Shown: positions 1 to 47,167 of the stretch, one piece after another
How positions within the stretch are numbered: position 1 is the stretch's first letter
Layout: each line of letters starts with the position of its first letter
DNA from: Cyanidioschyzon merolae
Taxonomy: Eukaryota
Reading direction: 5' to 3' (one strand)
DNA length: 64,000 nt
Assembly (NCBI GenBank): GCA_000091205.1
Contig: AP006493.2
Position numbers and translations under genes: made by a program
Notes under the pieces: generated by a model
The model's input: only the letters and a program-made list of their open reading frames with translations
Databases searched by the model: none
What the model was told of the DNA's origin: nothing

Positions 1-638
1 GAGGCGATTGCTCCAACGACGCTCGTTCGAGTCCGGGTCCCTCGTCGATGCAAACCGCAGAGACTGGAGTCTCCCGGTGCGTATACCGATCGATATATCT
101 CGCTGTTGCGGAATGCCGTCTCGTTAACCGCCACGAAGCACAGAGGATTCGTCTTTCAAACGGGACTTATGATTGTTCGTGACAAGTCCGGACCACTTTG
201 GGGCAGGCGCTTGCGGCCAGGTTACCAAACGACGTCGTCGATACAGGTCTTCATGGTCAGTCCAGCGGCGCGACTGGTATTGAAACAGATACATCCATGA
301 ACGATAATGTGTGATGCTCATTTGCAACACGTCAGGAACTGAGAAGCATTGGAGGCTGCAACGTAAGCACCGGGCAGTGGTATCGGGTATTCCAGGATCA
401 CGCTTGGTGGCGGGCGTTGTAACTCATCCTGATTCCAGTGTCGTACCGAATACTTGCGACAAAGCATCGCAGGTCCCGGTCCTGAACCAAGACCCAGAAT
501 CCTGAAACGAGGTATGCATCCGGCATTGCGTATGATTTCTCCTCGAGTATCGAGACTGAGCATCCGAGAAAACGGCTGGTAAGATTTGAAGCCAGAATCA
601 CAGCGAGCATTCCAGAGCTTCACTCTAATCTGAGACGC
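1..638. repeat. Copy A of a long dispersed/direct repeat of at least 638 bp, truncated at the window start; its partner is at 24634-25271
   Basis: Positions 1-638 align base-for-base with 24634-25271 with about 10 mismatches (about 98% identity). Both copies end at the same right boundary '...cattccagagcttcactctaatctgagacgc'. The flanks then diverge completely ('atctagatcctgagc' at copy A, 'ttgcgggtgctattcgc' at copy B). The ORF-track peptides are duplicated (106..300 matches the end of 24511..24933; 124..330 matches 24757..24963; 311..505 matches 24944..25138). Confidence 0.9.
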
Positions 639-1126: not shown

Positions 1127-2755
1127 TCAGCGTCGGGCCAGCTGCCCAAGTTCCTGGAGTACAATGTTGCGCATCTCCTGTGCCGGGGCCCTCAAGCCCG
1201 TCCAGATGGTAAACTGGGCTGCGGCCTGTCGGACGAACATCTCGACCCCGTCCACTGTGAGACAACCTCGTCGCTTTGCCAGACTCAGAAGCCGCGTTTC
1301 TATTGGATTATAGACGGCGTCGAACACGAGGCAGTGCGGCTCCAGAATCTCCTCTGGAACCGGAACGACATTCACATCTGGATGCATGCCAATGGAGGTG
1401 GAATTCATCAGAATATCGATTCGCTCTCGGGTAGCAGGGTTCCTCTGCTGTTGACAAAAGTCCTCTAGTGAGAGCGCAACTAGCTCTGTCTTCCCGAAAG
1501 GACTCAAATCATTTGCGAGCGATCTTGCTCTTTCCAGGGTACGATTCACGATAGTGAGTTTGCCGCAGCCGCAGTGTACGACCCCGAAGGCGATCGCCCG
1601 TGCCGCACCACCGGCTCCCAGGAGGACGACATGGCGTCGCTGGAGTGCCGTCAAGCGAGCCTGCCCCTGTTCGATTCCGGGCATCAAGGTCTCGGATACT
1701 GCATCTACCGCTGCCTGCCAATCGGTGTTATAGCCCTTGCGTCGGCCCGTGAGCGGATCCACCACGATCGTATTCACTGCCCCGATCTGCTTCGCCACAT
1801 CATCCAATTCGTCCAGGCACTCCATGATGCGCTGCTTATGGGGAATGGTCACACTGGCCCCGCGCAAGCCAAACTGCGTCATGGTATCGAGAAACTTTTG
1901 CAACTTAGAGCCGTCCTGAACGAGAAAGGGAAGGTAGACGTGGTTCAGACGGCAGAGTCCAAAGGCGTGGTTATGGATCCGCGGGCTCATTGAATGCCTG
2001 ACGGGTGCCCCGATAACCCCATAGACTGTGGTATCAGGGTTCAGGCTATGGAAACGATAATGATCGATGAGTTCTTCGATCCGGAATTGACCCGGTGCAG
2101 ACGCCCGTGCCTCGCTCAGCGTTGTGAACGTCAGCATTGCAGGTCCAAACTTGGCGGCAAGAACTCGGCTGATCTGCCCATACTCTCCCATTCCTATAGC
2201 AATCGTAGGTTTGCTGCCAGCAGTGCGCTTCAGTAAGGCAAATAGTCGCGCGTTGTCGCACAAGTCGTGGCACATCATGGCGATCTTGCAAATATCAGCT
2301 CCGGTTGCCACGATTGCCGTGTAGATTTCAGCGAGCTCCGCTTCAGTTAATGGTCGCGTGAAGCTATGATAGGAGACGATGAGTCGTGGACGAGTGGATG
2401 CATCTTGGAGCTGGACGCTCTCCGGCATCCGAAACAGGTCCATGTTCGCGAGTTCGACGTCCACGTACTCAACGCCGTGTTGAACAGCGCGCTGCAACAG
2501 CCTCACTCGCTCGTGATCGTTCATATCGGATAAACCTCCCTCACAAACAGGACGATATGTGAAAACCATAGGCAGAGGCCGTTGATCTACTACCCGCTCC
2601 CAGGACTCCCCCTCGGCGAGGTAGTCGGCACGGAACTCGACGAGGTCAGCGCCGGCCCTTCGTGCCTCGTACATGTCGGCTATCGCTTCTTCTGCAGAGT
2701 TCGCTGTTATAGATGTACATATTAGACAGCGAATTCCTGCACCTGAAACAGGCAT
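1127..2755 (-). CDS. Bifunctional 3-dehydroquinate dehydratase (type I) / shikimate 5-dehydrogenase (DHQ-SDH, plant/algal-type shikimate pathway enzyme)
   Basis: 542-aa ORF. The N-terminal half has type I DHQase motifs ('ICTSITANSAEEAIADMYEARRAGADLVEFRADYL', 'ICKIAMMCHDLCDNARLFALLK...KPTIAIGMGEYGQISRVLAAKFG'). The C-terminal half is shikimate dehydrogenase ('VYGVIGAPVRHSMSPRIHNHAFG', 'LRGASVTIPHKQ', Rossmann motif 'VVLLGAGGAARAIAFG', 'NRT'). This matches the known plant bifunctional enzyme architecture. Confidence 0.85.
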   Translation of the reverse strand: MPVSGAGIRCLICTSITANSAEEAIADMYEARRAGADLVEFRADYLAEGESWERVVDQRPLPMVFTYRPVCEGGLSDMNDHERVRLLQRAVQHGVEYVDVELANMDLFRMPESVQLQDASTRPRLIVSYHSFTRPLTEAELAEIYTAIVATGADICKIAMMCHDLCDNARLFALLKRTAGSKPTIAIGMGEYGQISRVLAAKFGPAMLTFTTLSEARASAPGQFRIEELIDHYRFHSLNPDTTVYGVIGAPVRHSMSPRIHNHAFGLCRLNHVYLPFLVQDGSKLQKFLDTMTQFGLRGASVTIPHKQRIMECLDELDDVAKQIGAVNTIVVDPLTGRRKGYNTDWQAAVDAVSETLMPGIEQGQARLTALQRRHVVLLGAGGAARAIAFGVVHCGCGKLTIVNRTLERARSLANDLSPFGKTELVALSLEDFCQQQRNPATRERIDILMNSTSIGMHPDVNVVPVPEEILEPHCLVFDAVYNPIETRLLSLAKRRGCLTVDGVEMFVRQAAAQFTIWTGLRAPAQEMRNIVLQELGQLARR

Positions 2756-2844
2756 TAAGCGTCGTTATACCGGTGAACACACCAAGGTGTTCTGGAACTC
2801 GCAGATGTCGCGAGAGAGGCACACCTGGCGTGTGCTCAGCGTAG

Positions 2845-4705
2845 GCGCTGCTGGCCCGCCTCGTATCCCAATGTGGGATCAGCAGCGGTACGAATGCTGA
2901 ATGCTGCGGGTGTTGTTCGACGGACAGTTTCTGGCTATCGAAAGCGTTGACGCTTTTAAGGGCTACTGTTCCGCTGTCCCGCCTCGTATCCCAATGTGGG
3001 ATCAGCAGCGGTACGAATGCTGAATGCTGCGGGTGTTGTTCGACGGACAGTTTCTGGCTATCGAAAGCGTTGACGCTTTCAAGGGCTACTGTTCCGCTGT
3101 CCCGCCTCGTATCCCAATGTGGGATCAGCAGCGGTACGAATGCTGAATGCTGCGGGTGTTGTTCGACGGACAGTTTCTGGCTATCGAAAGCGTTGACGCT
3201 TTCAAGGGCTACTGTTCCGCTGTCCCGCCTCGTATCCCAATGTGGGATCAGCAGCGGTACGAATGCTGAATGCTGCGGGTGTTGTTCGACGGACAGTTTC
3301 TGGCTATCGAAAGCGTTGACGCTTTTAAGGGCTACTGTTCCGCTGTCCCGCCTCGTATCCCAATGTGGGATCAGCAGCGGTACGAATGCCGAATGCTGCG
3401 GGTGTTGTTCGACGGACAGTTTCTGGCTATCGAAAGCGTTGACGCTTTCAAGGGCTACTGTTCCGCTGTCCCGCCTCGTATCCCAATGTGGGATCAGCAG
3501 CGGTACGAATGCCGAATGCTGCGGGTGTTGTTCGACGGACAGTTTCTGGCTATCGAAAGCGTTGACGCTTTCAAGGGCTACTGTTCCGCTGTCCCGCCTC
3601 GTATCCCAATGTGGGATCAGCAGCGGTACGAATGCCGAATGCTGCGGGTGTTGTTCGACGGACAGTTTCTGGCTATCGAAAGCGTTGACGCTTTCAAGGG
3701 CTACTGTTCCGCTGTCCCGCCTCGTATCCCAATGTGGGATCAGCAGCGGTACGAATGCCGAATGCTGCGGGTGTTGTTCGACGGACAGTTTCTGGCTATC
3801 GAAAGCGTTGACGCTTTCAAGGGCTACTGTTCCGCTGTCCCGCCTCGTATCCCAATGTGGGATCAGCAGCGGTACGAATGCCGAATGCTGCGGGTGTTGT
3901 TCGACGGACAGTTTCTGGCTATCGAAAGCGTTGACGCTTTCAAGGGCTACTGTTCCGCTGTCCCGCCTCGTATCCCAATGTGGGATCAGCAGCGGTACGA
4001 ATGCTGAATGCTGCGGGTGTTGTTCGACGGACAGTTTCTGGCTATCGAAAGCGTTGACGCTTTCAAGGGCTACTGTTCCGCTGTCCCGCCTCGTATCCCA
4101 ATGTGGGATCAGCAGCGGTACGAATGCTGAATGCTGCGGGTGTTGTTCGACGGACAGTTTCTGGCTATCGAAAGCGTTGACGCTTTCAAGGGCTACTGTT
4201 CCGCTGTCCCGCCTCGTATCCCAATGTGGGATCAGCAGCGGTACGAATGCCGAATGCTGCGGGTGTTGTTCGACGGACAGTTTCTGGCTATCGAAAGCGT
4301 TGACGCTTTCAAGGGCTACTGTTCCGCTGTCCCGCCTCGTATCCCAATGTGGGATCAGCAGCGGTACGAATGCTGAATGCTGCGGGTGTTGTTCGACGGA
4401 CAGTTTCTGGCTATCGAAAGCGTTGACGCTTTCAAGGGCTACTGTTCCGCTGTCCCGCCTCGTATCCCAATGTGGGATCAGCAGCGGTACGAATGCCGAA
4501 TGCTGCGGGTGTTGTTCGACGGACAGTTTCTGGCTATCGAAAGCGTTGACGCTTTCAAGGGCTACTGTTCCGCTGTCCCGCCTCGTATCCCAATGTGGGA
4601 TCAGCAGCGGTACGAATGCTGAATGCTGCGGGTGTTGTTCGACGGACAGTTTCTGGCTATCGAAAGCGTTGACGCTTTCAAGGGCTACTGTTCCGCTGTC
4701 CCGAT
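2845..4705. repeat. Tandem array (satellite/minisatellite) of a 123-bp unit, about 15 copies, over 98% inter-copy identity
   Basis: The unit 'cccgcctcgtatcccaatgtgggatcagcagcggtacgaatgc[t/c]gaatgctgcgggtgttgttcgacggacagtttctggctatcgaaagcgttgacgcttt[c/t]aagggctactgttccgctgtc' repeats head-to-tail. The ORF track shows the same 41-aa peptide repeated 15 times in frame (2947..4833). Two SNP variants segregate among copies. Each unit contains the palindrome gaaagcgTTGAcgctttc. Confidence 0.95.
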
Positions 4706-5613
4706 CATATCAGGTGAGGACTATGATCGATACTGCGGGTTTGGAGCGCGTTTCCAGGGCCAAACAAGGGGCGTTCCGCACAAGCGGGACGAGTTGGACT
4801 TTTCTGGACGGTTGTCAAGGGCGTCGGCGTTGAGCGGTCGTACGAGTTTCTGCTTCGAGCTTGCAGAGGGAAAGCAGAATCGACATGCATATGTGACTGC
4901 GATGAGCAGATGCTTTTAGTGTTCAAAGCCGTTTGGCGAGTTGATGACGAGTTCAAGATCGTCGGTTGCAGCGTGCGCTGCTTCGTAGAGAGGAACAAGG
5001 ACACGAAAACCTCGAACTCGTTGTGGCGTGTCTGAAACCAATCGTGAAAGAAATCGCCAAGCATCGCTTCCAATGAGTAAATAATATATCGATACGAGAG
5101 GGTTCTGGTTAGCCTACGGATCGCTGTATGCTGTCTGCATGCGTGGGGCGCCTCTACAGCACCTATGAGAACGCGGCGATGCTCAGAAGCGAGTCCATGA
5201 CCTTGACATGACGCTGTGTACAGAGGACCTGAGGCTGTTCGTGAACAAGCTGCTGACTCTGGAATGCCCGTATCTCTTCAGTCTGGCGATAGATCGTTGA
5301 TCTGAACGTCCGAGTCCAAATCCTGTGTTCCAGGCACCGCAACTGGTTCAGTACCCGCAGTGCCCGCATCCCCGAGAGACATCATCGTATGTAGGACGTG
5401 GCGGGTGTCCCTGAACGCTTCTCGTTAACTAGACAACATGAGCGTTTGCGTTAGCCCCCCTACAAGAACATTTTAGCGAGTCTGGGTGGCGCCCAGAGCG
5501 CCCAGCTCGAATAATCTGCCTTTTGCGACAGCGTGGCAGCGGTGGATCCAACGCCCACTGGGTACCGGCTTCTGAAATCGCAAAACGTTTCCTCTGCGAG
5601 CGCGTTGCAATGG

Positions 5614-7175
5614 CTAGTCTTGTCCCCGGGGACATACATTCGCTTTCTCGTCGACGCTAGCGCGAGCGGCGCTTTCGCCGAGCGGCCACCCGGTACGCTG
5701 CGCAACCAGGTTCCAGACTCGTGTTCGAATGCGAGCGCTACATCCATCGGGACGCTCAACAAAACGGTAGACCAGACGCTTGATTTTGAACGACTGCTGA
5801 TAACGCCATTGTCGCGCCCATTCGCTGAATACCTCTCGAACTGATGACGCATCAGGTGGATCTCGAAATACTCCCTGTTGACCGACAGTTGGCCGCTGTG
5901 GCAAAGACCCCGCTGCTGGTATTCGTAAAGCGTCGCGATCATCAGCCAGACCGTCCGTTGCCGTATGACGACCCGGGTATGGATGCTGGACTCCATCCAC
6001 AGTGATATATTCGGCTTCTTGGATATGAAGTAGGCGCATGAGGCCCGCAAAGAATCGATCAACGGGGGTATGCGCTCGACCTGTTCGCAAGATGGCGTGC
6101 CGCAGCTCAGCAGCTGCGTTAATGAGCGTATCACCGAGCGTCCCGCAGCGGCGTGGCTCAAAGTCGGCGGCGACCCAGACAGCGAACAAGAGCTCGATTG
6201 TCGTTCCCAGATACGAGAGGAGATATTCGTCATCTGTCTGGGGATTCTGCTCAGAACTCCGTTTCAAACGCCGCCAGAAGTGTGCAAACAACTGCCACAG
6301 GCGACTAGCGAGGTGAGAAGGAAGCGGACCTTCGCGCGCCGCCACGGCTGCTGCCGTCACCGCTCCAGGCGCGATACCAACGAGCATTGCCAACGCCATG
6401 CGGATACAGGGACTCTTCAGCGGCTGGCGTCGAATACATCGCACGAGCACACCAATCACGATATCGACAAGTGTGCAACGGTCTGCATCGAGGCTGGTCT
6501 CGCGGTACCATGTAACGGGCTGCTCAAGGACGTGGCTCGCAAGCGCTCGAGACCAGCCCTCATCCTCAGTGAGCAGAAGAAGCGTTGCGAGTCGCAACTC
6601 CGTGACGTCTACCGAACTCTCTACGTAGAGCAAGCGCAGCAGCGTTAGCAGAAAGATCTCGGGATCCGTTCGGACGGCCAAGTAGCGCCGCCAATGCTCC
6701 GCGGAATCATACGTTAAAAAATAGAACAAGTACGAGCCTTCTGGATAATGGAGCCACCAAACGCATACATCATGCAGGTTGGATAGCGTCAGCGGCTGCA
6801 CTGAATGCAGCCCAGTCTGCACCGCATCGTTGCCAAAGTCCGCAGCAGCGCCAGCAGCAGCTGTTGTTGTTATTGTTGTTCGTTGATGCTCGCTGTTCGC
6901 ATCAACAACGGCTGGGAGCGTTTCGCAGGAGGTACGCGCAAGCACACCAGCGAGTGCCTGGCGAAATGGTTGACCGGCTCTCTGATTTGGAAACAGCGGC
7001 TGCGCTAGCTCGTCTGGATCGTCAGTCACGAGCGATAACAGGGTTAGCAAGAGCCCCATGCATACCACAGTTTTCCGAGCGATTGGATCCTCCGGTAGTG
7101 CACTCGATCGATGCATATGCAGCGTTCCAGCTGGTGCAATGGCTTCGGCTGCTCGAGAATGCATCCTCGAGGGGC

Positions 7176-7207
<32 letters not shown>

Positions 7208-8562
7208 ATCGAAACTACTGGTTCCTGTGAGGGTTCTGCGAGCTGGTCGGCCTCAGCCGCGTCTGCGAGTACCCGTTCAGCGTTGGCATGCTCGCTGACG
7301 AATGGCCAAAACTGGAACCAAGACCAGTTCGATCTCTTCGCTACGGCGGCATGCAGCGCAGCTGGACGTGCGCTTTGCGTTGCCAACGCTTCCTCGGTGG
7401 ACCTTTCTGCGAAATGTTTTCCGTCTAGTTCGAGAAAGTTGAGGCCCTGCCCTCTCGTTGCCATTTGTAGGAGCACGCTCTCCAAGGTCGTTGCGTCGTG
7501 AATTGTTCCGCTACCCAAGCCTGCCATCTTCCGAATTCTCGATAGCGTGTCGCGAACTAGGCACCCCAGCAAGAGCTCGATGCATCGATGGATTCTTGCG
7601 TCTAGGCGTCGAATGAGCGCATAGGTTTTCGTTGTATCCATCCAGTCAAGCAAATGGAGCAACAGGCAGCTGCTCCAGAAAAAAGTCTCCTGATCGCGGT
7701 CAGCAGACAGCATGAGGTACTCGACGCTCAGGATCAGCATGATATACTGGCAATGCTCAAGTGCTGTCTGGTCGGGGAGAAGAGATTCCCCGCGCTGAGC
7801 CCAGCTTCGCCTCACCGCTGGCCGCAAAAAGTTGCACAAGAACCAGAAGGCCCCATGCACAGCGGCGTGCCAATCACCGGTATTGGCGATACGTGGTTGC
7901 TGATCACCAGGATCCTGCAAAGCATAGACTGCTTTCAGCTGATCCAGGGCACCCAGCGTCGCCAGTAGAACAACAGGTGCTAGTGATTCAAACGCATGCA
8001 GTGATGTCACTAGCCGTTGCATGACAAGCCCGAGCAGAGATTCCTGCTGGTCGTCCAGTGCTGCTCTAGCTGCAGATGGTGTTCCTGGATCACGCGGGAG
8101 TGCATTCGCAGCTCTGGTGTGTACAGTACCGGGGTTCACGACTTCACGCTCGAGGAAGATCAGCGCTCGAAGCCAGAGGCGATCCCCAATGGGCGGCACC
8201 GAAATCCCCTGTTGATTCGTTGGGGTGACACCAGCACCGCCAGCTGCGCTTGTTGGAACTGTGCTCTGCGCTCGGCTGTCGGATGACCAGTGCGCAGTGG
8301 CGTGCGCGACTTGTCTGTGCCAGTAGTGGGCTCCCAGGAGCCGTAGACTTTGCGCAACGCTCTCTGGGTGCACGCTGCCGCTCGCTGCACCAGTGCCCGA
8401 CACGTTTGCGTCCGCTGCTGAAGCCGCAATAGCGCTCGCAGCGTCTTGGTCTTTTGAGCGCCATGACGGGCTCAGGAGGAGGTTTGGGGGCACTTGCTTC
8501 GACTCCGGAAACTCGTTACCGTCTGCGAGTGCCTCCGCTTGGGTGTTTAACGCGTTTCCCAT
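5614..8562 (-). CDS. Large hypothetical protein (982 aa) with a poly-Gln tract; no recognisable catalytic domain
   Basis: Long uninterrupted ORF in a GC-rich genome. N-terminus 'MGNALNT' has an N-myristoylation-like start. The internal (CTG)9 microsatellite encodes Q10 in frame. A divergent intergenic region of about 480 bp is shared with the next gene. No homology could be assigned by eye. Confidence 0.5.
7187..7215. repeat. (CTG)9 / (CAG)9 microsatellite, in frame within the 982-aa gene (poly-Gln)
   Basis: 'ctgctgctgctgctgctgctgctgctg'; the minus-strand translation gives QQQQQQQQQQ in ORF 5614..8562. Confidence 0.9.
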
Positions 8563-12000: not shown

Positions 12001-14160
12001 CATACGCAGGGACACGTGTCCGGTGTCACGGGCTCGCCGCGGCGCGCCGCCACCCCCAACCCCAATGATGATGTTCATGATGATGCATCGTGCATCAGCG
12101 ATGCGTGGCCAACGCGCCTTGCCGCAGCGTTGTGTGCGCGCGCCACGCTGCTTGCGTTTCGGCGATCGACGGCGGTACCAGCGTCGATCGCTGATCACAG
12201 CAGCGAATCGTGCATGCCGGCGAACGCGCACCCTCAACTGCTGTCATCGTCGCAGTCGATGGAGTCTCCAGTACACGCATGGATGCGCGATGCGGACACG
12301 CATTCGCAGGCGGCGTGGCATGCTGCTGCGCGGCAACGTTCACGGCGACGACGGCGACGGCGACGGCAGCAGCAGCAGCAGCAGCAGCAGCAGGAACAGG
12401 AACATGTTGTTGCAGCGGCGATATCTGGGGCGGTAACGACGGGTGATCTGGGCACTGTTGAGGCGCGCTCGGGTCCTGCGACTGTGGACAGCGATGCATC
12501 GTCGTCGTCATGCTCGGGCGGCGAGCGCGCTACTACATGGCGTACGCAGGGAAACGATGGTACATTTCAGGGAGTCTCAGCTGGCAATGCCCAGTGCGCC
12601 ACGAGCTTGCATTCGCCCTGTATGGAGCAACTGGACTCTATATGTGTTGAGCGGACGCTTACCGACGACGACAACGCAGGCGACGGTGCCGTTGTTGTGC
12701 GATGTCGCACGAATGGGCTGACGACACAGTTCCTACTGAACCCGGCCGTAGCGCTTTGCAGGTCATGTTTTCTAGTCGAATGTGATGAATTGATCGGGCG
12801 GAGGCACTTGCTCATTCGCTGTCTAATTTTGCTGAAGGTTTGGTGGCGCCACAGCCTGGCCACTGCGCAGGCACGAGCTTTGTTGTCGCCGCTCTCCGGG
12901 TCGCTTGTCTCGCCGTTCCTAGCATTGTTGTTACTGAGCTATTTGAATTGCAGAGGCCTTCCTGGTGATGAACCAGCACATGTTTTACAAGGGCTCTTCT
13001 CTTTCTACGGATTCGATATGGACTGGTCTCGTTGCGGTATGAGCATCTATGGGCCGTTTGACATCCAAAGTGGCGCGCTGATGACGCATTTGACGACGCG
13101 CCAACCGCTTATCCCAGACGCGATGCTTCGCGCGCATCAGCTCGAGTACGCTACCTGTCGTCTGCGGTATCGGGGCAGTGGCGAAGGCAGTGCTCGCGAC
13201 CTAGGCGACACTGATGCCGGAACGCGCACTGGCTACTGCGACGAAAACGACGACAACGAGGGTGCTGGAGAGCTACGCGCCCGAACTGGTCGCCAGCGAG
13301 CGCACTTGGGTCATTTTCCCCTCAACGTATTGGATGCTCTGGACCCAGGCTGGAATATTGGGCTCCAGATGGCACCGAGCCCATCTCTAGCATTCGCACT
13401 TGTGGGGGCATTTCGCGCGACGGCACAAAAGCTGGGCGAGTTCCGGGATCGCCCCAGCCGTATGCACTTGGACTTCATCTGGGGCATCGACGGTGCGCTA
13501 AAGCCCATCTGGTCCCTAATCCATGAGCACTGTGGATCGGATGCGGTCTTGTTGCTGCAAAGAGCATTCGATGATACGCCTGCTGAGTACGCATCGGGTG
13601 AACGCGCTGCGGACGGGCTCGACCAACTGAGCAGCGGAGTCGTTCCCGCAATGCCGTCCACAACGGTACTGCGCTTTTGGGAGCTGCGGCATCTCTGTGG
13701 CCTTGCGCTCGCCCCAGAAGCCGTATCCACGTCGCCATGTTCCGACAAACGCACTGGATTACGGCAGGTGCACACATACGCATCCAGTGCTACGCGCGAA
13801 GAGCTTGGCGCTTTGCCCGATATCGGCGAGCTGAAGCAAATCCTAGCCTACGTGCGATTTCTCATTCTATTCGATACTTCCGAGGCTGGTATTTTGGCGT
13901 TCCTGCTGCAAACGCTCCGACGCAAGCGCTCGCTACTCGTTGGAGAACTTGGTCAGCTGCTGCGAAGCCGTATGAACAAGAGCGCATGGCAGACGCTCTT
14001 CAAAACACGCCACGGGGGCTTGAAGCGTTTCCTTGAACGGTATCCCGATCTTTTCCAAATCGAAAATGATCATCCGCTGAATCCGCACGTCTCACTGCGC
14101 ATTCGGGACCTCGGCCAGAACATGCACCGCAGACACCGTGGTGAAGCAACAGCTACCTGA
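9043..14160 (+). CDS. Very large low-complexity protein (1705 aa) containing a Cid1/poly(A)-polymerase-like nucleotidyltransferase core with a degenerate catalytic motif
   Basis: Single ORF of 5.1 kb with acidic (DDDDNDEDDFDDVDVDDD), poly-Q and poly-R tracts. An NTase-fold motif 'LGAHSFAVGSYAEKTYLWESGLDVGVFIAG' resembles the Cid1/TUTase 'FGS...SDIDL' motif, but the first catalytic Asp is replaced ('SGLDV'). Downstream, a PAP/25A-associated-like segment 'LLIRCLILLKVWWRH...VLQGLFSFYGFDMDWSRCGMSIYGP' is present. The true start codon is uncertain. Confidence 0.55.
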   Translation: MESVNTLQHSRRRQPSSVTLNSDAATVHGTLFAVQLSPTRFQTAFAFRTFSCSTFYSYMSTDVLVTADTTLADLAWPIVSAAIRSATFIAFSLRTTVSVQDCERQLGSLATDTLTLDAVPDSSEPKHAGESFSPADECHIAASGAGHHQSLQRRYAVYREWITRQSVIELGMTTFRRRPMDRPWVSKARGKLSGEREPSVASGPGAEQSTKSSETAAFDVQTFRFIFLLDNKGTGSVIPCFLVTPTALRQLSGRQYKEYSGQLEVDAGAVVGSPLYSDTSDDDDNDEDDFDDVDVDDDVAHACTTVTAALSKSEPYESATQQRVPEIAASTESLGWDRTAENVLGLALRQGIRYLPPRSQVTMETTPNSLPQPAVPLCSAASFETNAQRECPSLNSVDVAGGTLQGLATSTAHAASLKTAGLGARSREWASLPPSTAKGEGAQLFRMLAESGVPLVFFDGLFEIMSMYEAFYAPLPPDLDAFIATLGIVTPRVVDVRCMTALMNLHGSRKTRAPCRANANDLRPGEALLALMVRVALQSASVKHRHLLESIRGGRCFVNHPHAQALRRQAQAFAQQHNNTSARQRDGTGSDASLDNAGKQVGIILDGQQPPNESADSGAAGLATWDLEQMLTENSEPANAGEYASMLLVPLARAQTNALERYGQSSSDGTAAGSWPAPGVPADALADCTPLNEADACELIAALEDQELPDDALADFDMPPQNVSGNTRGAALRAFHVGAVLAYLLERHGWSAIMDRFRGCISSGYGDDAIRLREPGSDANAAMYTGSTGSGPDVIQGKLTFPVTSAASWRSRVGGFVSASDSKRITSPESQADADRVPAEARDWDQRHQARSTLHQGQHAEASPPANAFLSETPTIRTTVSAAAVAAPTPTLHQQSKAASLTPSSTVGHALADEWISRLVSLLAPNRLTEMLYERTLMAASSIAQRALGAHSFAVGSYAEKTYLWESGLDVGVFIAGATNNNNKCTHTQGHVSGVTGSPRRAATPNPNDDVHDDASCISDAWPTRLAAALCARATLLAFRRSTAVPASIADHSSESCMPANAHPQLLSSSQSMESPVHAWMRDADTHSQAAWHAAARQRSRRRRRRRRQQQQQQQQQEQEHVVAAAISGAVTTGDLGTVEARSGPATVDSDASSSSCSGGERATTWRTQGNDGTFQGVSAGNAQCATSLHSPCMEQLDSICVERTLTDDDNAGDGAVVVRCRTNGLTTQFLLNPAVALCRSCFLVECDELIGRRHLLIRCLILLKVWWRHSLATAQARALLSPLSGSLVSPFLALLLLSYLNCRGLPGDEPAHVLQGLFSFYGFDMDWSRCGMSIYGPFDIQSGALMTHLTTRQPLIPDAMLRAHQLEYATCRLRYRGSGEGSARDLGDTDAGTRTGYCDENDDNEGAGELRARTGRQRAHLGHFPLNVLDALDPGWNIGLQMAPSPSLAFALVGAFRATAQKLGEFRDRPSRMHLDFIWGIDGALKPIWSLIHEHCGSDAVLLLQRAFDDTPAEYASGERAADGLDQLSSGVVPAMPSTTVLRFWELRHLCGLALAPEAVSTSPCSDKRTGLRQVHTYASSATREELGALPDIGELKQILAYVRFLILFDTSEAGILAFLLQTLRRKRSLLVGELGQLLRSRMNKSAWQTLFKTRHGGLKRFLERYPDLFQIENDHPLNPHVSLRIRDLGQNMHRRHRGEATAT
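12365..12392. repeat. (CAG)9 microsatellite preceded by a (CGA/CGG)n run, in frame in the 1705-aa gene (R9-Q11 tract)
   Basis: 'cgacgacggcgacggcgacggcagcagcagcagcagcagcagcagcag' encodes 'RRRRRRRQQQQQQQQQEQEH'. Confidence 0.9.
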
Positions 14161-24633: not shown

Positions 24634-25271
24634 GAAGCGATTGCTCCAACGACGCTCGTTCGAGTCCGGGTCCCTCGTCGATGCAAACCGCAGAGACTGG
24701 AGTCTCCCGGTGCGTATACCGATCGATGTATCTCGCTGTTGCGGAATGCCGTCTCGTTAACCGTCACGAAGCACAGAGGATTCGTCTTTCAAACGGGACC
24801 GATGATTGTTCGTGACAAGTCCGGTACACTTTGGGGCAGGCGCTTGCGGCCAGGTTACCAAACGACGTCGTCGATACAGGTCTTCATGGTCAGTCCAGCG
24901 GCGCGACTGGTATTGAAACAGATACATCCATGAACGATAATGTGTGATGCTCATTTGCAACACGTCAGGAACTGAGAAGCATTGGAGGCTGCAACGTAAG
25001 CACCGGGCAGTGGTATCGGGTATTCCAGGATCACGCTTGGTGGCGGGCGTTGTAACTCATCGTGATTCCAGTGTCGTACCGAATACTTGCGACAAAGCAT
25101 CGCAGGTCCCGGTCCTGAACCAAGACCCAGAATCCTGAAACGAGGTATGCATCCGGCATTGCATATGATTTCTCCTCGAGTGTCGAGACTGAGCATCCGA
25201 GAAAACGGCTGGTAAGATTTGAAGCCAGAATCACAGCGAGCATTCCAGAGCTTCACTCTAATCTGAGACGC
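24634..25271. repeat. Copy B of the direct repeat of at least 638 bp (partner of 1-638)
   Basis: See copy A. Same orientation, about 98% identity, identical right boundary, 24.6 kb apart. Confidence 0.9.
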
Positions 25272-44809: not shown

Positions 44810-47167
44810 TCAGTCCCGCTCGTCGTTCTCGTCCAAATATTTTTCGAGCACCTTTTCTTCGACCTCAAGGACTTGTTCGACCCATTCTTCGAGGACTTCG
44901 TCGTCACCGGGAGCAGCGCCTTCCGCATCCGCTGCGAGCGCATCGGTGATATGGCGCTCGCCCCCGGGGATATGCTTCCATAGCGCTGCACGTTTTTCTG
45001 TCTCCGCTCGATACCGCGCACGGTTGCGTTCCACAAGTTTCTGCCATTCCGCGAGCGCGTCCCGGCGGGCAACTCGAATGTCACGACGTCGATGGGCGCG
45101 CATCGCTGTATCCTCGGCTTCGTACTTGGCACGGTACTGTTTCAGATTCTTGCGTACTTCCCGCTCCTCCTGCTCAGATAGGAACCACTTGGCGGGGCGC
45201 GGGCGCCAGGAAAACTCAAAAAGGTTCTCCATAAAATGGGGCGCACCAAGTTTCCGCCCGTAAAACGTCCAGAGTTGATATCCATGCTCAATACGGGAAG
45301 CGCTCGCATTCACCCAGGTGCACACGAAGCGGCCACTCGGATCCCAGCAGATGTCGGAGCAGGCAAAGTGTTCATCAACGCCCATGAGCTCATGGTCGGC
45401 AACATTCCACCACTCGAGGACGCCTCCCATGCTGCCGAGGCCTGCCAGCAGAACATGCCCCATACCTGTCGGTGACCAGCAGATTCGATTGCACTGCTTC
45501 CGTTCGAGCCTGAACAGGGTCCGTACGGTATCCTTCTGGACCTCGTAGAAAGTCACCATGGGGCGCGTCGAGCCGCTTGCCAGGCCCATGGCACCGGCAA
45601 CGCCTCCAGCAGCGGTTCCGAGCCCGCCCAATGGCGTCGTCGTCGTTGCTGCTGCTGCTGCTGCTGCTGCTGTATTCGGTGGCAAATGTTGCTGATGCAG
45701 AATCGCGAATCGGTCGCTTTTGGGTTCCCACGCAAACGCTAGTACCTTATCGCGTTCGGAGAACTCAAGCGTCTCCACTGGTACGTCTTTTTCATTCACA
45801 CGGAATATTTCAAAGTTTGTGAATCGACCTTTTCTGCTGCGTGTATACCGCTCGACTCTGCAGGCGAGGTACTTGCCCTGCGGGTGCCAGATGAGTTCGA
45901 TATTCGCGACCGAGTACAGGGCTTTCTGTCGCAGTTCGCGGCGGCTTGGCATCTCCAGCAGCAAGACGCGTGCGGGCGACTGGCCCTCCTCGGGCGTCCA
46001 GATGGCCAGGAGGTTCGGCGTGGTGGGTGACCACGCAAACCCGAGCGCAGCCGGAACGCTCACCGGACGATGATCGAGTAGCTCAATCCGATCAGGCAAC
46101 ATCTCAAACACGTGAATGCAGTCCTCTCCGAGTCGCGCCATCATTGTCTCGTCAGCGGAGAACTGCACGAGGGGCCACGGGAAGCGCCCAATATCTGGAG
46201 GCGGCATCCCACGTTCCCGTTCTGTTTCCATACGCTTCCACTCCGCGGACTGCATGGACGCGAGCATTGGGTTCGCTGCATCCGCTCGTGCCCGTTCCTC
46301 AAGAACATCGCTCCAGAGACGCTCCAAGAGGCGCGGCGGCAGACGCAGGGGCGACTCGAAAACCTTTAGGCGGCGACCAGTGCCGGTTTCCCACACGACC
46401 AAGGGCTCTGGCGAGTCCGGGGCATTAAACGTAACTAGATACCGCTCGTTTCCAGAGAAATGTATCAGACGGGGTTGTGGATGCTCGAAGCGTACGATCT
46501 TCTGGAACTCGCTGCCGCCCCAGAGGGCAATGCCCTGCCGATGAAAAGTCGCCAAATAGAGGCCCTGCGGAGACCAGGCTACGTCAGACTCTGTCCAGTT
46601 TGCTCGCTCGTGCTCAAGTTCCGGAGGCAACAGTGGGTCAACCCAGTACACGGCAGTGTCGACGCCCGTGCAGACGACGAACTGATCGCGCCCGCGTGGA
46701 TCCGCCAAGTGTGATAGCAAGTTCGGCCGAGTTTCCATGTGTCGCGCGGTCTCGTCACTCAGCTCCGCAAGCAGCTCTGCTGGTGGCTCAAAAGAAGCAT
46801 CCGGAGGCAGCTGACGCAACCGCTCCACATCGCTAAGAAGACTCACTTGAAAGCGGTGCGCTTTATCGAGCTGAAAACCGTCCGTCTGCTTCCGAGCCCG
46901 CTCTGCCTCTTCTGCAGTAGCATATTCCACGATCCCATAACCCCCGGTCGGCGGAATTTCAAGATACTTGATCACACCCAACGGGGAAAAGATCTTTTGA
47001 ATCACGTTCACGAGTTTCGCGTGTTTGCTTTCCGGGATCACGGGAACGTTTTCGACGACAAGCGTTGAAGCCAGGGCGTCATTGACCGCTCTGTCTACGA
47101 GCGCTTGCTTTGCATTAACTTTGGATGTTTTCCAGGTATCCGCGCCTGATGAAGCAGCGCGCGTCAT
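44810..47167 (-). CDS. EIF3B: Eukaryotic translation initiation factor 3 subunit B (eIF3b/PRT1): RRM + WD40 beta-propeller
   Basis: 785-aa ORF. N-terminal RRM 'TLVVENVPVIPESKHAKLVNVIQKIFSPLGVIKYLEIP...YGIVEYATAEEAERARKQTDGFQLDKAHRFQV'. WD40 core 'VAWSPQGLYLATFHRQGIALWGG..FQKIVRFEHPQPRLIHFSGNERYLVTF'. Charged C-terminal coiled-coil 'WRPRPAKWFLSEQEEREVRKNLKQYRAKYEAED'. Confidence 0.88.
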   Translation of the reverse strand: MTRAASSGADTWKTSKVNAKQALVDRAVNDALASTLVVENVPVIPESKHAKLVNVIQKIFSPLGVIKYLEIPPTGGYGIVEYATAEEAERARKQTDGFQLDKAHRFQVSLLSDVERLRQLPPDASFEPPAELLAELSDETARHMETRPNLLSHLADPRGRDQFVVCTGVDTAVYWVDPLLPPELEHERANWTESDVAWSPQGLYLATFHRQGIALWGGSEFQKIVRFEHPQPRLIHFSGNERYLVTFNAPDSPEPLVVWETGTGRRLKVFESPLRLPPRLLERLWSDVLEERARADAANPMLASMQSAEWKRMETERERGMPPPDIGRFPWPLVQFSADETMMARLGEDCIHVFEMLPDRIELLDHRPVSVPAALGFAWSPTTPNLLAIWTPEEGQSPARVLLLEMPSRRELRQKALYSVANIELIWHPQGKYLACRVERYTRSRKGRFTNFEIFRVNEKDVPVETLEFSERDKVLAFAWEPKSDRFAILHQQHLPPNTAAAAAAAATTTTPLGGLGTAAGGVAGAMGLASGSTRPMVTFYEVQKDTVRTLFRLERKQCNRICWSPTGMGHVLLAGLGSMGGVLEWWNVADHELMGVDEHFACSDICWDPSGRFVCTWVNASASRIEHGYQLWTFYGRKLGAPHFMENLFEFSWRPRPAKWFLSEQEEREVRKNLKQYRAKYEAEDTAMRAHRRRDIRVARRDALAEWQKLVERNRARYRAETEKRAALWKHIPGGERHITDALAADAEGAAPGDDEVLEEWVEQVLEVEEKVLEKYLDENDERD
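45645..45672. repeat. (GCT)9 microsatellite, in frame in the eIF3b gene (poly-Ala/Thr insertion 'AAAAAAATTTT')
   Basis: 'gttgctgctgctgctgctgctgctgctgtat'; the minus-strand translation gives 'NTAAAAAAATTTTP'. Confidence 0.9.

What the first reader, a model, noticed from the sequence alone, without database searches (positions are those of the whole stretch)
2845..4705. Highly homogenised 123-bp satellite array (about 15 copies) with an 18-bp palindrome per unit, starting about 90 bp from the DHQ-SDH start codon
Seen directly: a 123-bp unit repeats head-to-tail about 15 times with only two polymorphic sites. The first is c/t in 'gaatgc[t/c]gaatg'. Across copies it runs t,t,t,t,c,c,c,c,c,t,t,c,t,c,t. 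This block pattern indicates recent unequal exchange or concerted evolution rather than ancient decay. The second is c/t in 'cgcttt[c/t]aag'. Every unit carries the near-perfect palindrome gaaagcg-ttga-cgctttc (7-bp arms). In two copies the 'ttttaag' variant breaks one arm. Every unit also carries a short internal direct repeat 'gaatgctgaatgctg'. The array lies between two minus-strand genes and ends only about 90 bp upstream of the DHQ-SDH ATG (2755). The promoter or 5'UTR of that gene must therefore lie inside or abut the array. The array looks like a multimerised binding-site or enhancer-like array, or a locus-specific minisatellite. It is too short and too GC-rich to be a canonical centromere. 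A 123-bp period is also close to short-linker nucleosome-phasing lengths.
Basis: seen in the sequence. Interest (0 to 1): 0.7.

Follow-up and report, generated by a model that had tools for sequence, protein, structure and literature searches.

The report
Strain-variable 123-bp promoter-proximal minisatellite

Summary

The window is Cyanidioschyzon merolae 10D chromosome 11. The array lies in the unannotated spacer between CMK271C and CMK270C (DHQ-SDH), 94 bp from the DHQ-SDH ATG.

Conspecific metagenome contigs (98-99.8% identical) carry 1, 2 or at least 3 copies at the same site. In single-copy alleles the unit is bracketed by a 9-bp near-direct repeat (GCTGGCCCG/GCTGTCCCG). This points to microhomology-mediated duplication followed by unequal exchange or slippage, that is, a VNTR.

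- Function: no reading frame behaves as coding, and there is no Rfam, tRNA or covariation signal.
- Palindromes: both are broken in some natural alleles.
- Conservation: the unit is undetectable in Cyanidiococcus despite conserved synteny.
- Divergence: unit plus spacer differ about 5% between haplotype groups, against about 1% at neutral sites. That indicates instability rather than constraint.

A regulatory effect on DHQ-SDH, like fungal CYP51 promoter repeats, is neither excluded nor supported. Interest is low to moderate: a new member of a known kind.

The parts
2850..4703 (.). Tandem array: 15 full 123-bp units plus a 9-bp partial unit. GC is 55%, the same as the surrounding genome.
   Evidence: TRF; copies compared in register; unit GC.
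2850..2858 (.). Proximal copy of the 9-bp near-direct repeat (GCTGGCCCG). It brackets the unit in single-copy alleles and is the proposed microhomology for the first duplication.
   Evidence: Single-copy alleles L002, L003, L005, L011, L012, L013, L020 and L021 have GCTGGCCCG at this end and GCTGTCCCG at the other; L006 has GCTGTCCCG at both ends.
4695..4703 (.). Distal copy of the 9-bp near-direct repeat (GCTGTCCCG). This is the 0.07 partial unit that ends the array.
3063..3080 (.). 18-bp perfect palindrome GAAAGCGT-TG-ACGCTTTC, shown for copy 2 and recurring every 123 bp. One arm is broken by the C-to-T variant in the copies at 2850 and 3219.
   Evidence: Chance of about 0.01 per random unit.
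2988..3002 (.). Second palindrome ATCCCA-ATG-TGGGAT, which contains a CCAAT pentamer. Shown for copy 2 and recurring every 123 bp.
   Evidence: Broken in natural alleles L003 and L012 (G to C) and L006 and L010 (T to C).
2756..2849 (-). 94-bp unique spacer between the array and the DHQ-SDH ATG. By inference it holds the 5'UTR and/or core promoter. It carries an in-frame TAA three codons upstream of the ATG.
   Evidence: It differs 5/94 between 10D and group-B haplotypes.
1127..2755 (-). CMK270C, the bifunctional 3-dehydroquinate dehydratase / shikimate dehydrogenase gene. It lies immediately downstream of the array on the minus strand.
   Evidence: Pfam DHquinase_I, Shikimate_dh_N, Shikimate_DH and SDH_C; exact match to BAM80612.1.
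4704..5613 (.). Non-repetitive remainder of the intergenic spacer. No ORF here is conserved in more distant relatives.
   Evidence: 1.3% divergence from group B.
5614..8562 (-). CMK271C, a Dymeclin-domain hypothetical protein and the upstream neighbour.
   Evidence: Pfam Dymeclin; exact match to BAM80613.1. Its accession is consecutive with CMK270C, so nothing is annotated between the two genes.

Best explanation
The array is a young, unstable, non-coding minisatellite (VNTR) in the CMK271C-CMK270C intergenic spacer of Cyanidioschyzon merolae 10D chromosome 11.

Shown: in the species' ancestral state the 123-bp segment is single-copy. It lies about 95-226 bp upstream of the DHQ-SDH start codon and is bracketed by a 9-bp near-direct repeat.

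Inferred: mispairing or template switching between those two 9-mers produced a first duplication. This happened more than once, because the junction sequences differ between alleles. Once two copies existed, unequal exchange and/or replication slippage changed the copy number and spread variants in blocks. The unit's own hairpin-forming dyads may have helped. The result is 15 nearly identical copies in strain 10D.

The DNA most likely has no sequence-specific function of its own. Any effect would be a by-product on the DHQ-SDH promoter, through extra copies of promoter-proximal sequence and about 1.7 kb more distance to upstream DNA.
For: 1. The array is real and highly homogeneous.

2. Organism and context come from exact protein matches. 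No gene is annotated between the flanking genes.

3. Conspecific contigs that are 98-99.8% identical across the spacer carry different copy numbers.
- One unit with both flanks: L002, L003, L005, L006, L011, L012, L013, L020, L021.
- Two units with both flanks: L004/L008, L010.
- At least two or three units, running off the contig end: L007, L009, L026, L027.
- L003 is a MEGAHIT k=141 contig. By my inference, a collapsed multi-copy array could not give fewer than 2.07 copies at k=141, so this single-copy allele is genuine.
- The two units of L010 differ from each other at two sites, so that allele is not a loop artefact.

4. Junction types differ: GGGACAGC in 10D, L004 and L009, against GGGCCAGC in L010 and between two of the L007 units. 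This argues for recurrent duplication.

5. L001, a Logan contig encoding the exact 10D protein, stops 30 nt past the only unique variant of the first copy. That is expected for k=31 unitigs entering a multi-copy array.

6. There is no functional signal.
- Pfam hits are only summed repeat noise with no single stretch passing.
- There is no Rfam hit at E<=1 and no tRNA.
- There are 0 compensatory pairs, and 3 predicted pairs are broken in natural alleles.
- Between haplotype groups, changes are 2 synonymous to 3-4 non-synonymous in the open minus frame and 1 to 4 in the open plus frame. The ATG of the third plus frame is lost in group B (read).
- Each open frame finds only one metagenome ORF, from a contig of this same locus, among 5.8 billion proteins.

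7. The unit is not detectable in Cyanidiococcus or a 53%-identity relative, although CAF1-Dymeclin-DHQ-SDH synteny is conserved.

8. Unit plus spacer diverge 5.1%, against 1.0% at codon third positions plus distal spacer (Fisher p=6e-5). This is the behaviour of an unstable repeat, not of a constrained element.
Against: - No read-level or long-read data were available. The exact number 15 in 10D rests on the published Sanger/BAC assembly.
- One-copy SPAdes-type contigs could in principle be collapsed arrays.
- The unit is more self-complementary than shuffled controls (RNA z=-2.6 to -3.5 on the minus strand, DNA z=-2.9 on the plus strand). It also carries an 18-bp perfect dyad expected only about 1% of the time.
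- An unrelated 56-bp x 6.8 array sits at the equivalent position upstream of DHQ-SDH in Cyanidiococcus yangmingshanensis. This could hint at something locus-specific.
- Fast divergence of unit plus spacer could also reflect positive selection on the promoter.
- Expression was not tested.
Confidence: 0.7

Rival explanations
1. Copy-number-dependent cis-regulatory array. The unit carries promoter-proximal factor sites (the 18-bp dyad with a TGACG core, and a CCAAT box inside the second dyad). Multiplying it raises or tunes transcription of DHQ-SDH, as tandem duplication of enhancer segments does upstream of fungal CYP51 genes. The 15-copy state of 10D would then be functional and possibly selected.
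For: - Position: the unit lies 95-226 bp upstream of the ATG in single-copy alleles.
- The dyad is unlikely by chance, at about 0.01, and CCAAT and TGACG motifs are present.
- Copy number varies among natural alleles.
- Unit plus spacer diverge faster than neutral sites.
- An independent array sits at the same promoter in Cyanidiococcus.
- Precedent: the 126-bp tandem repeat upstream of P. digitatum cyp51, and TR34 in A. fumigatus, where duplication doubles expression (PMC4954732).
Against: - There is no expression or binding data.
- The dyads are broken in several natural alleles and in 2 of 15 copies of 10D, without compensation.
- No 8-mer is shared with the upstream regions of three more distant orthologues, and the CCAAT and TGACG motifs have no counterpart near the same position there.
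- CCAAT in 123 bp is expected about 23% of the time by chance (my arithmetic).
- Cyanidiococcus shows two minisatellites in 17.6 kb, so a coincidental array there is not surprising.
Confidence: 0.2
2. Tandemly amplified small structured RNA gene on the minus strand. For example, an H/ACA-like snoRNA reading hairpin - ACAACA - hairpin - ACA, of about 125 nt, roughly the length of one unit.
For: - Minus-strand folds have z=-2.6 to -3.5.
- In internal units, two hairpins are separated by GAACAACA and followed by ACA (read).
Against: - Most single-copy alleles (all but L006) have CCA, not ACA, after the second hairpin.
- Neither hairpin has a canonical pseudouridylation pocket.
- There is no Rfam hit at E<=1.
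- There are 0 compensatory changes and 3 broken pairs.
- No homologue exists in syntenic loci of relatives.
- The unit diverges faster than neutral sites.
- No C-box is present, so it is not a C/D snoRNA.
Confidence: 0.04
3. Expressed protein-coding repeat. The candidates are the 41-aa Cys-rich plus-strand frame, the open minus-strand frame, or the MLRVL... micro-ORFs, which the C variant fuses by turning TGA into CGA.
For: - 123 is 3 x 41, and two of the six frames are open through the array.
- The C/T site is synonymous in both open frames.
Against: - Neither open frame has an ATG.
- About one open frame in six is expected by chance for a 41-codon unit (my arithmetic).
- No gene is annotated between BAM80612 and BAM80613, and the exact ORFs are absent from NCBI and UniProt.
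- Pfam hits are not real.
- Searches of 5.8 billion proteins return only one ORF call per frame, both from contigs of this same locus.
- Changes between haplotypes are mostly non-synonymous, and one destroys the MLRVL start codon.
- No conserved ORF is found in relatives.
Confidence: 0.02
4. The array is real but its length in the reference is an assembly artefact. The true 10D copy number differs substantially from 15.
For: - Near-identical 123-bp units are hard to count with about 700-nt Sanger reads.
- Every short-read contig either collapses or breaks at the array.
Against: - The ordered pattern of variants (T4 C5 T2 C T C T, plus two 'ttttaag' copies) gives landmarks that Sanger reads with mate pairs or BAC subclones can order.
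- The genome was finished BAC by BAC (PMC1955436).
- Independent contigs confirm at least 3 copies in nature.
Confidence: 0.1

Closest known systems
Classical eukaryotic minisatellites / VNTR loci
   Same: - Head-to-tail units in the tens to low hundreds of bp, at a single locus.
- Very high identity between copies, with variant units arranged in blocks.
- Edge copies are the most divergent (first copy in 10D; first unit in L026 and L027).
- Copy number differs between conspecific genomes.
- Sequence in and next to the repeat diverges faster than elsewhere.
   Different: - The unit, at 123 bp, is at the long end of the range.
- The genome is famous for having almost no repeats.
- A single-copy progenitor allele bracketed by a 9-bp microhomology can still be seen in wild haplotypes.
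Tandem duplication of enhancer segments in fungal CYP51 promoters: the P. digitatum 126-bp repeat and A. fumigatus TR34/TR46/TR53 (PMC4954732, citing Hamamoto et al. 2000)
   Same: - A promoter-proximal segment of very similar size (126 against 123 bp) lies upstream of a metabolic gene.
- It is single-copy in some strains and tandemly multiplied in others.
- The unit contains a CCAAT-type motif.
   Different: [quoted passage not shown] Here there is no expression, binding or selective agent known, and copy number reaches 15. This is a resemblance in architecture only.
Unstable tandem repeats in yeast promoters that tune expression through nucleosome occupancy (Vinces et al., Science 2009; recalled from my own knowledge, not read here)
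   Same: A variable-length tandem repeat lies within a few hundred bp of a start codon in a compact, intron-poor genome.
   Different: The yeast cases are mostly short, AT-rich units that exclude nucleosomes. This unit is long, has average GC (55%), and is nearly as long as a nucleosome core, so the mechanism need not carry over.

Membership tests
Minisatellite / VNTR | Head-to-tail array of units about 10-100+ bp long with high identity | tested here: met
   Period 123, 15.1 copies, 99% matches.
Minisatellite / VNTR | Copy number polymorphic among individuals of the species | tested here: met
   There are 1, 2, at least 3 and 15 copies at the same site in contigs 98-99.8% identical in the flanks. 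Caveat: these are short-read assemblies. L003 (k=141) and L010 (non-identical copies) cannot be collapse artefacts, by my inference.
Minisatellite / VNTR | Locus-specific rather than dispersed through the genome | tested here: inconclusive
   No other copy is present in the 64-kb window. The metagenome pattern scan hit only this locus, on 2 contigs. The rest of the 16.5-Mb genome was not available.
Minisatellite / VNTR | Non-coding | tested here: met
   plus the substitution pattern read.
Promoter tandem-repeat enhancer (TR34 / PdCYP51 126-bp type) | Repeat lies in the 5' non-transcribed or 5'UTR region of the regulated gene, with single-copy and multi-copy alleles | tested here: met
   The array is 94 bp from the ATG. 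Alleles carry 1 to 15 copies.
Promoter tandem-repeat enhancer (TR34 / PdCYP51 126-bp type) | Unit binds a transcription factor and copy number changes transcript level | not testable with these tools
   There is no expression or binding data. Indirect tests are negative: the motifs are not conserved in orthologous promoters, and the dyads are broken in natural alleles.
H/ACA box snoRNA | Hairpin - H box (ANANNA) - hairpin - ACA located 3 nt from the 3' end | tested here: not met
   Internal units read ...ACAACA...GGCGGG-ACA-GC. The single-copy alleles L002, L003, L005, L011, L012, L013, L020 and L021 have CCA in place of ACA; only L006 has ACA.
H/ACA box snoRNA | Pseudouridylation pocket (large internal loop) in at least one hairpin, with rRNA or snRNA complementarity | tested here: not met
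   Predicted hairpins have only small bulges or a multibranch loop. rRNA complementarity could not be tested because no C. merolae rRNA was available.
H/ACA box snoRNA | Structure maintained in evolution, or a match to a curated family | tested here: not met
   There are 0 compensatory pairs and 3 broken pairs. There is no Rfam hit at E<=1 and no homologue in syntenic loci.
Centromeric satellite | Present and required on the chromosome, enriched in CENH3, and (as I recall for C. merolae) AT-rich | tested here: not met
   Unit GC is 55%, equal to the genome average. The array is reduced to one copy in conspecific alleles. CENH3 occupancy is not testable, and the centromere-mapping paper (Kanesaki 2015) was not available.
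Tandem-repeat protein gene | Start codon, purifying selection, and homologues or annotation | tested here: not met

The most novel reading that the evidence does not exclude
The array may be a tunable promoter amplifier. The 123-bp promoter-proximal module of the DHQ-SDH gene expands and contracts recurrently in natural Cyanidioschyzon populations, and its copy number sets expression of this shikimate-pathway step. The 15-copy allele would have been fixed in the 10D lineage. The unrelated 56-bp array at the same promoter in Cyanidiococcus would be a convergent solution. That would be an algal counterpart of the fungal CYP51 promoter repeats, in one of the most repeat-poor eukaryotic genomes known.
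Probability: 0.12. Interest if true: 0.5.

Novelty: new member of a known kind. Interest (0 to 1): 0.22.

Why it matters
C. merolae 10D is a reference model, valued for its '100% complete', almost repeat-free genome.

- **Strain marker.** A 1.85-kb hypervariable minisatellite is a ready-made marker for typing strains or populations.
- **Assembly trouble spot.** Short-read assemblies and read mapping break here. Every short-read contig examined either collapses or ends at the array.
- **Engineering caveat.** Anyone modifying or measuring CMK270C (DHQ-SDH) expression should know the array is there.
- **Repeat birth.** The progenitor single-copy allele, its 9-bp microhomology and several intermediate copy numbers are all visible together. 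The locus therefore gives a clean natural example of how a minisatellite arises.

If copy number turned out to control DHQ-SDH expression, it would be a simple, genetically tractable case of promoter evolvability driven by a repeat. Nothing found here indicates a new kind of element.

Tried and rejected
- **H/ACA snoRNA array on the minus strand.** This was suggested by two hairpins, an ACAACA hinge and a trailing ACA. I rejected it because ACA is CCA in all but one of the single-copy alleles, there is no pocket, no covariation, no Rfam hit and no conservation.
- **C/D snoRNA.** There is no C box in the unit, read directly from the sequence.
- **tRNA or permuted tRNA.** ARAGORN found nothing. 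Permuted genes would not be detected by this tool.
- **Coding repeat in any of six frames.** Rejected.
- **MITE or insertion with a target-site duplication.** The 9-bp flanking repeat could be read as a TSD. However, the 114-bp interior has no terminal inverted repeats, read directly from the sequence.
- **Conservation of the unit or of any motif in Cyanidiococcus and a more distant relative.** None was found by blastn with word size 7, tblastn of all intergenic ORFs, or a shared 8-mer scan.
- **Metagenome-wide pattern scan for further loci.** It returned only two contigs, both from this locus, so it says little about genome-wide distribution.
- **Literature.** No description of this array was found in the papers I could search or open: the genome paper, the resequencing note, the dispersed-repeat study, the recent life-cycle paper, and a search for CMK270C. 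The centromere-mapping paper and Hamamoto 2000 are not held.
- **Bacterial promoter/terminator scan.** Not run, because it is irrelevant to a eukaryote.
Full report
**Observation**

Tandem Repeats Finder reports one large array in the window: 2850-4703, period 123, 15.1 copies, 99% matches, no indels. Laying the copies in register gives three variable columns.

- The C-to-T 'ttttaag' variant is in the copies starting at 2850 and 3219.
- A G at position 5 occurs in the first copy only.

The 18-bp palindrome is real. It is perfect as 8-bp arms with a 2-nt spacer, and about a 1% event for a random unit. A second palindrome, ATCCCA-ATG-TGGGAT, is also present in every unit. The unit does not occur elsewhere in the window.

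**Where it is**

Six long ORFs of the window are exact matches to proteins of Cyanidioschyzon merolae 10D on an 852,849-bp record, chromosome 11 by the CMK gene names.

- The gene at 1127-2755 (minus strand) is CMK270C, a DHquinase_I plus shikimate dehydrogenase fusion.
- The gene at 5614-8562 (minus strand) is CMK271C, a Dymeclin-domain protein.
- Their protein accessions are consecutive, so the 2.86-kb spacer holding the array is unannotated.

I found no description of the array in the papers I could search or read.

**Comparative evidence: same species**

Looking up near-identical DHQ-SDH proteins returned many metagenome and Logan contigs that span or enter this spacer. The pattern scan and the two protein searches added four more. 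Flanks are 98-99.8% identical to the window.

| Copies | Contigs |
|---|---|
| One unit, both flanks present | L002, L003, L005, L006, L011, L012, L013, L020, L021 |
| Two units, both flanks present | L004 (= L008), L010 |
| Ends inside an array after at least 2-3 units | L007, L009, L026, L027 |
| Ends within the first unit | L001, L014-L017, L022 |

Short-read assemblers can collapse tandem arrays, so I weighed the single-copy contigs by inference.

- L003 is a MEGAHIT k=141 contig. A walk through a multi-copy array at k=141 cannot be shorter than two units plus 9 bp, so its 132-bp state needs reads that span both flanks.
- The two units of L010 differ from each other at two positions, so they are not a loop traversal.
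- L001 encodes the exact 10D protein. It stops 30 nt beyond the only unique variant of the proximal unit, as expected when a k=31 unitig enters a multi-copy array.

I therefore accept that copy number ranges from 1 to at least 15 within the species complex.

**Origin**

In single-copy alleles the unit is bracketed by a 9-bp near-direct repeat. This is GCTGGCCCG proximally and GCTGTCCCG distally in all of them except L006, which has GCTGTCCCG at both ends. The '15.1' copies of 10D are 15 units plus that distal 9-mer.

Junctions between units read GGGACAGC (minus strand) in 10D, L004 and L009. They read GGGCCAGC in L010 and between two of the L007 units. The first duplication therefore occurred more than once, with the exchange point on either side of the mismatch.

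Arrays entered from the distal side on group-B flanks (L026, L027) have a B-type first unit followed by a 10D-type unit. This shows mosaic arrays.

The C variant of the polymorphic site is the state found in group-B units. It sits in a CpG. Its blockwise distribution in 10D fits the spread of two unit types by unequal exchange, which is inference.

**Is the unit functional?**

*Coding.* Two of the six frames are open through the array, about what chance predicts for 41 codons.

- Neither open frame has an ATG.
- Pfam hits are summed repeat noise with no passing stretch.
- The exact ORFs are absent from NCBI and UniProt.
- Searching both open frames against 5.8 billion proteins returns only one ORF call each. 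Both come from contigs of this same locus.
- Differences between haplotype groups are mostly non-synonymous in every frame, and one removes the ATG of the MLRVL micro-ORF.

*RNA.* The minus strand folds better than shuffles (z=-2.6 to -3.5), and internal units look superficially like hairpin-ACAACA-hairpin-ACA.

- Most single-copy alleles have CCA instead of ACA, and the hairpins lack pockets.
- Rfam gives nothing at E<=1, and ARAGORN finds nothing.
- An alignment of 11 distinct unit variants shows 0 compensatory pairs and 3 broken pairs, including breaks in both palindromes.

*Regulatory.* The unit contains CCAAT and TGACG.

- Synteny (CAF1-Dymeclin-DHQ-SDH) is conserved in Cyanidiococcus yangmingshanensis (81% protein identity), a second 81% relative and a 53% relative.
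- Even so, no similarity to the unit, no conserved intergenic ORF and no shared 8-mer was found upstream of their DHQ-SDH genes.

**Rate of change**

Between 10D and the group-B haplotypes, the unit differs at 6 of 123 positions, not counting the site shared with the first 10D copy. The 94-bp spacer differs at 5 of 94. Together that is 5.1%.

By comparison, the distal spacer differs at 12 of 910 positions, and third codon positions of the two flanking genes at 12 of 1523. Together that is 1.0%. The difference is significant (Fisher p=6e-5).

The repeat and its immediate flank thus change about five times faster than neutral sites. This is the opposite of a constrained element. It is typical of unstable tandem repeats, although positive selection on the promoter cannot be excluded.

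**Mechanism proposed**

- Shown: the progenitor is a single-copy promoter-proximal segment with a 9-bp flanking microhomology.
- Inferred: duplication occurred by slipped or unequal pairing of the 9-mers.
- Inferred: unequal exchange or replication slippage followed, possibly favoured by the unit's hairpin-forming dyads (DNA fold z=-2.9). This produced a 15-copy, nearly homogeneous array in 10D.

The most probable functional status is neutral or nearly so. The only plausible effect is on CMK270C transcription, because the proximal unit lies 94 bp from the ATG and the array adds about 1.7 kb between the gene and its former upstream DNA.

**Comparison with known systems**

The array meets the defining features of a minisatellite/VNTR. 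The one feature I could test only partially is genome-wide locus specificity.

Architecturally it resembles the tandemly repeated enhancer segments upstream of fungal CYP51 genes: the 126-bp repeat of P. digitatum and TR34 of A. fumigatus (PMC4954732). The defining property of those, factor binding with increased transcription, could not be tested here, and the indirect tests are negative.

It fails the tests for H/ACA snoRNA, for a centromeric satellite (average GC, dispensable in conspecifics) and for a repeat-protein gene.

**Verdict**

Its enhancer half is unsupported. This is a new member of a known kind and of low to moderate interest. It is useful mainly as a strain marker, as an assembly and engineering caveat in a model genome, and as a clear example of minisatellite birth.

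Noticed in passing
window 1-638 and 24634-25271: Two stretches on the same strand are 98.4% identical over 638 bp. The first runs to the window start, so the duplicate may be longer. This is a dispersed repeat just downstream of the DHQ-SDH gene.
   Followed up: no
L023 7469-7847 (Cyanidiococcus yangmingshanensis, GCA_013995675.1 VWRR01000010.1): An unrelated 56-bp x 6.8 tandem array (87% matches) lies about 150 bp upstream of the orthologous DHQ-SDH ATG. It is flanked by a ~17-bp near-direct repeat, TTCCC[G/T]AACGAAATTCC (7443-7459 and 7849-7865). The other 81%-identity relative (L024) has no array there. The same 17.6-kb locus has a second minisatellite (84 bp x 1.8 at 12388-12541).
   Followed up: partly
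L011 1-3633 (JGI 3300057248 Ga0556024_00864): This contig matches the window only from about 140 bp distal of the unit (window 4844) onward. Beyond that point it carries different DNA, including a zf-AN1 gene and a 413-aa ORF, instead of CMK271C. This is either a rearrangement next to the repeat or a chimeric assembly.
   Followed up: partly
window 2756-2972 versus L005, L012, L013, L020, L021: Two haplotype groups exist in the metagenomes. The unit plus the 94-bp spacer diverge about 5% between them, while third codon positions and the distal spacer diverge about 1%. The divergence hotspot is localised.
   Followed up: yes
window 2716-2767 (N-terminus of CMK270C): Only 12 residues precede the DHquinase_I domain, and an in-frame TAA lies three codons upstream of the ATG. 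The same short N-terminus occurs in Cyanidiococcus. There seems to be no room for a plastid transit peptide on this plant-type DHQ-SDH fusion.
   Followed up: no
window 4705-5073 (minus strand) and L005 6800-7366: An unannotated ORF ends one base from the distal edge of the array, with its stop at 4705-4707. Metagenome gene callers extend it to 188 aa. It has no Pfam family on record in those gene calls, no exact match in the protein collection, and no tblastn match in more distant relatives, so it is probably spurious.
   Followed up: partly
L026 5286-5410: The third unit of this contig is heavily diverged, with many scattered mismatches, while the flanking units are clean. This is probably an assembly or sequencing-error stretch at a contig end rather than an old copy.
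   Followed up: no
window 7177-7207, 12366-12393, 45647-45672: Perfect CTG/GCA/TGC trinucleotide runs of 9-10 copies lie inside long ORFs. One is the poly-Q run in CMK271C, whose length differs between conspecific contigs.
   Followed up: no
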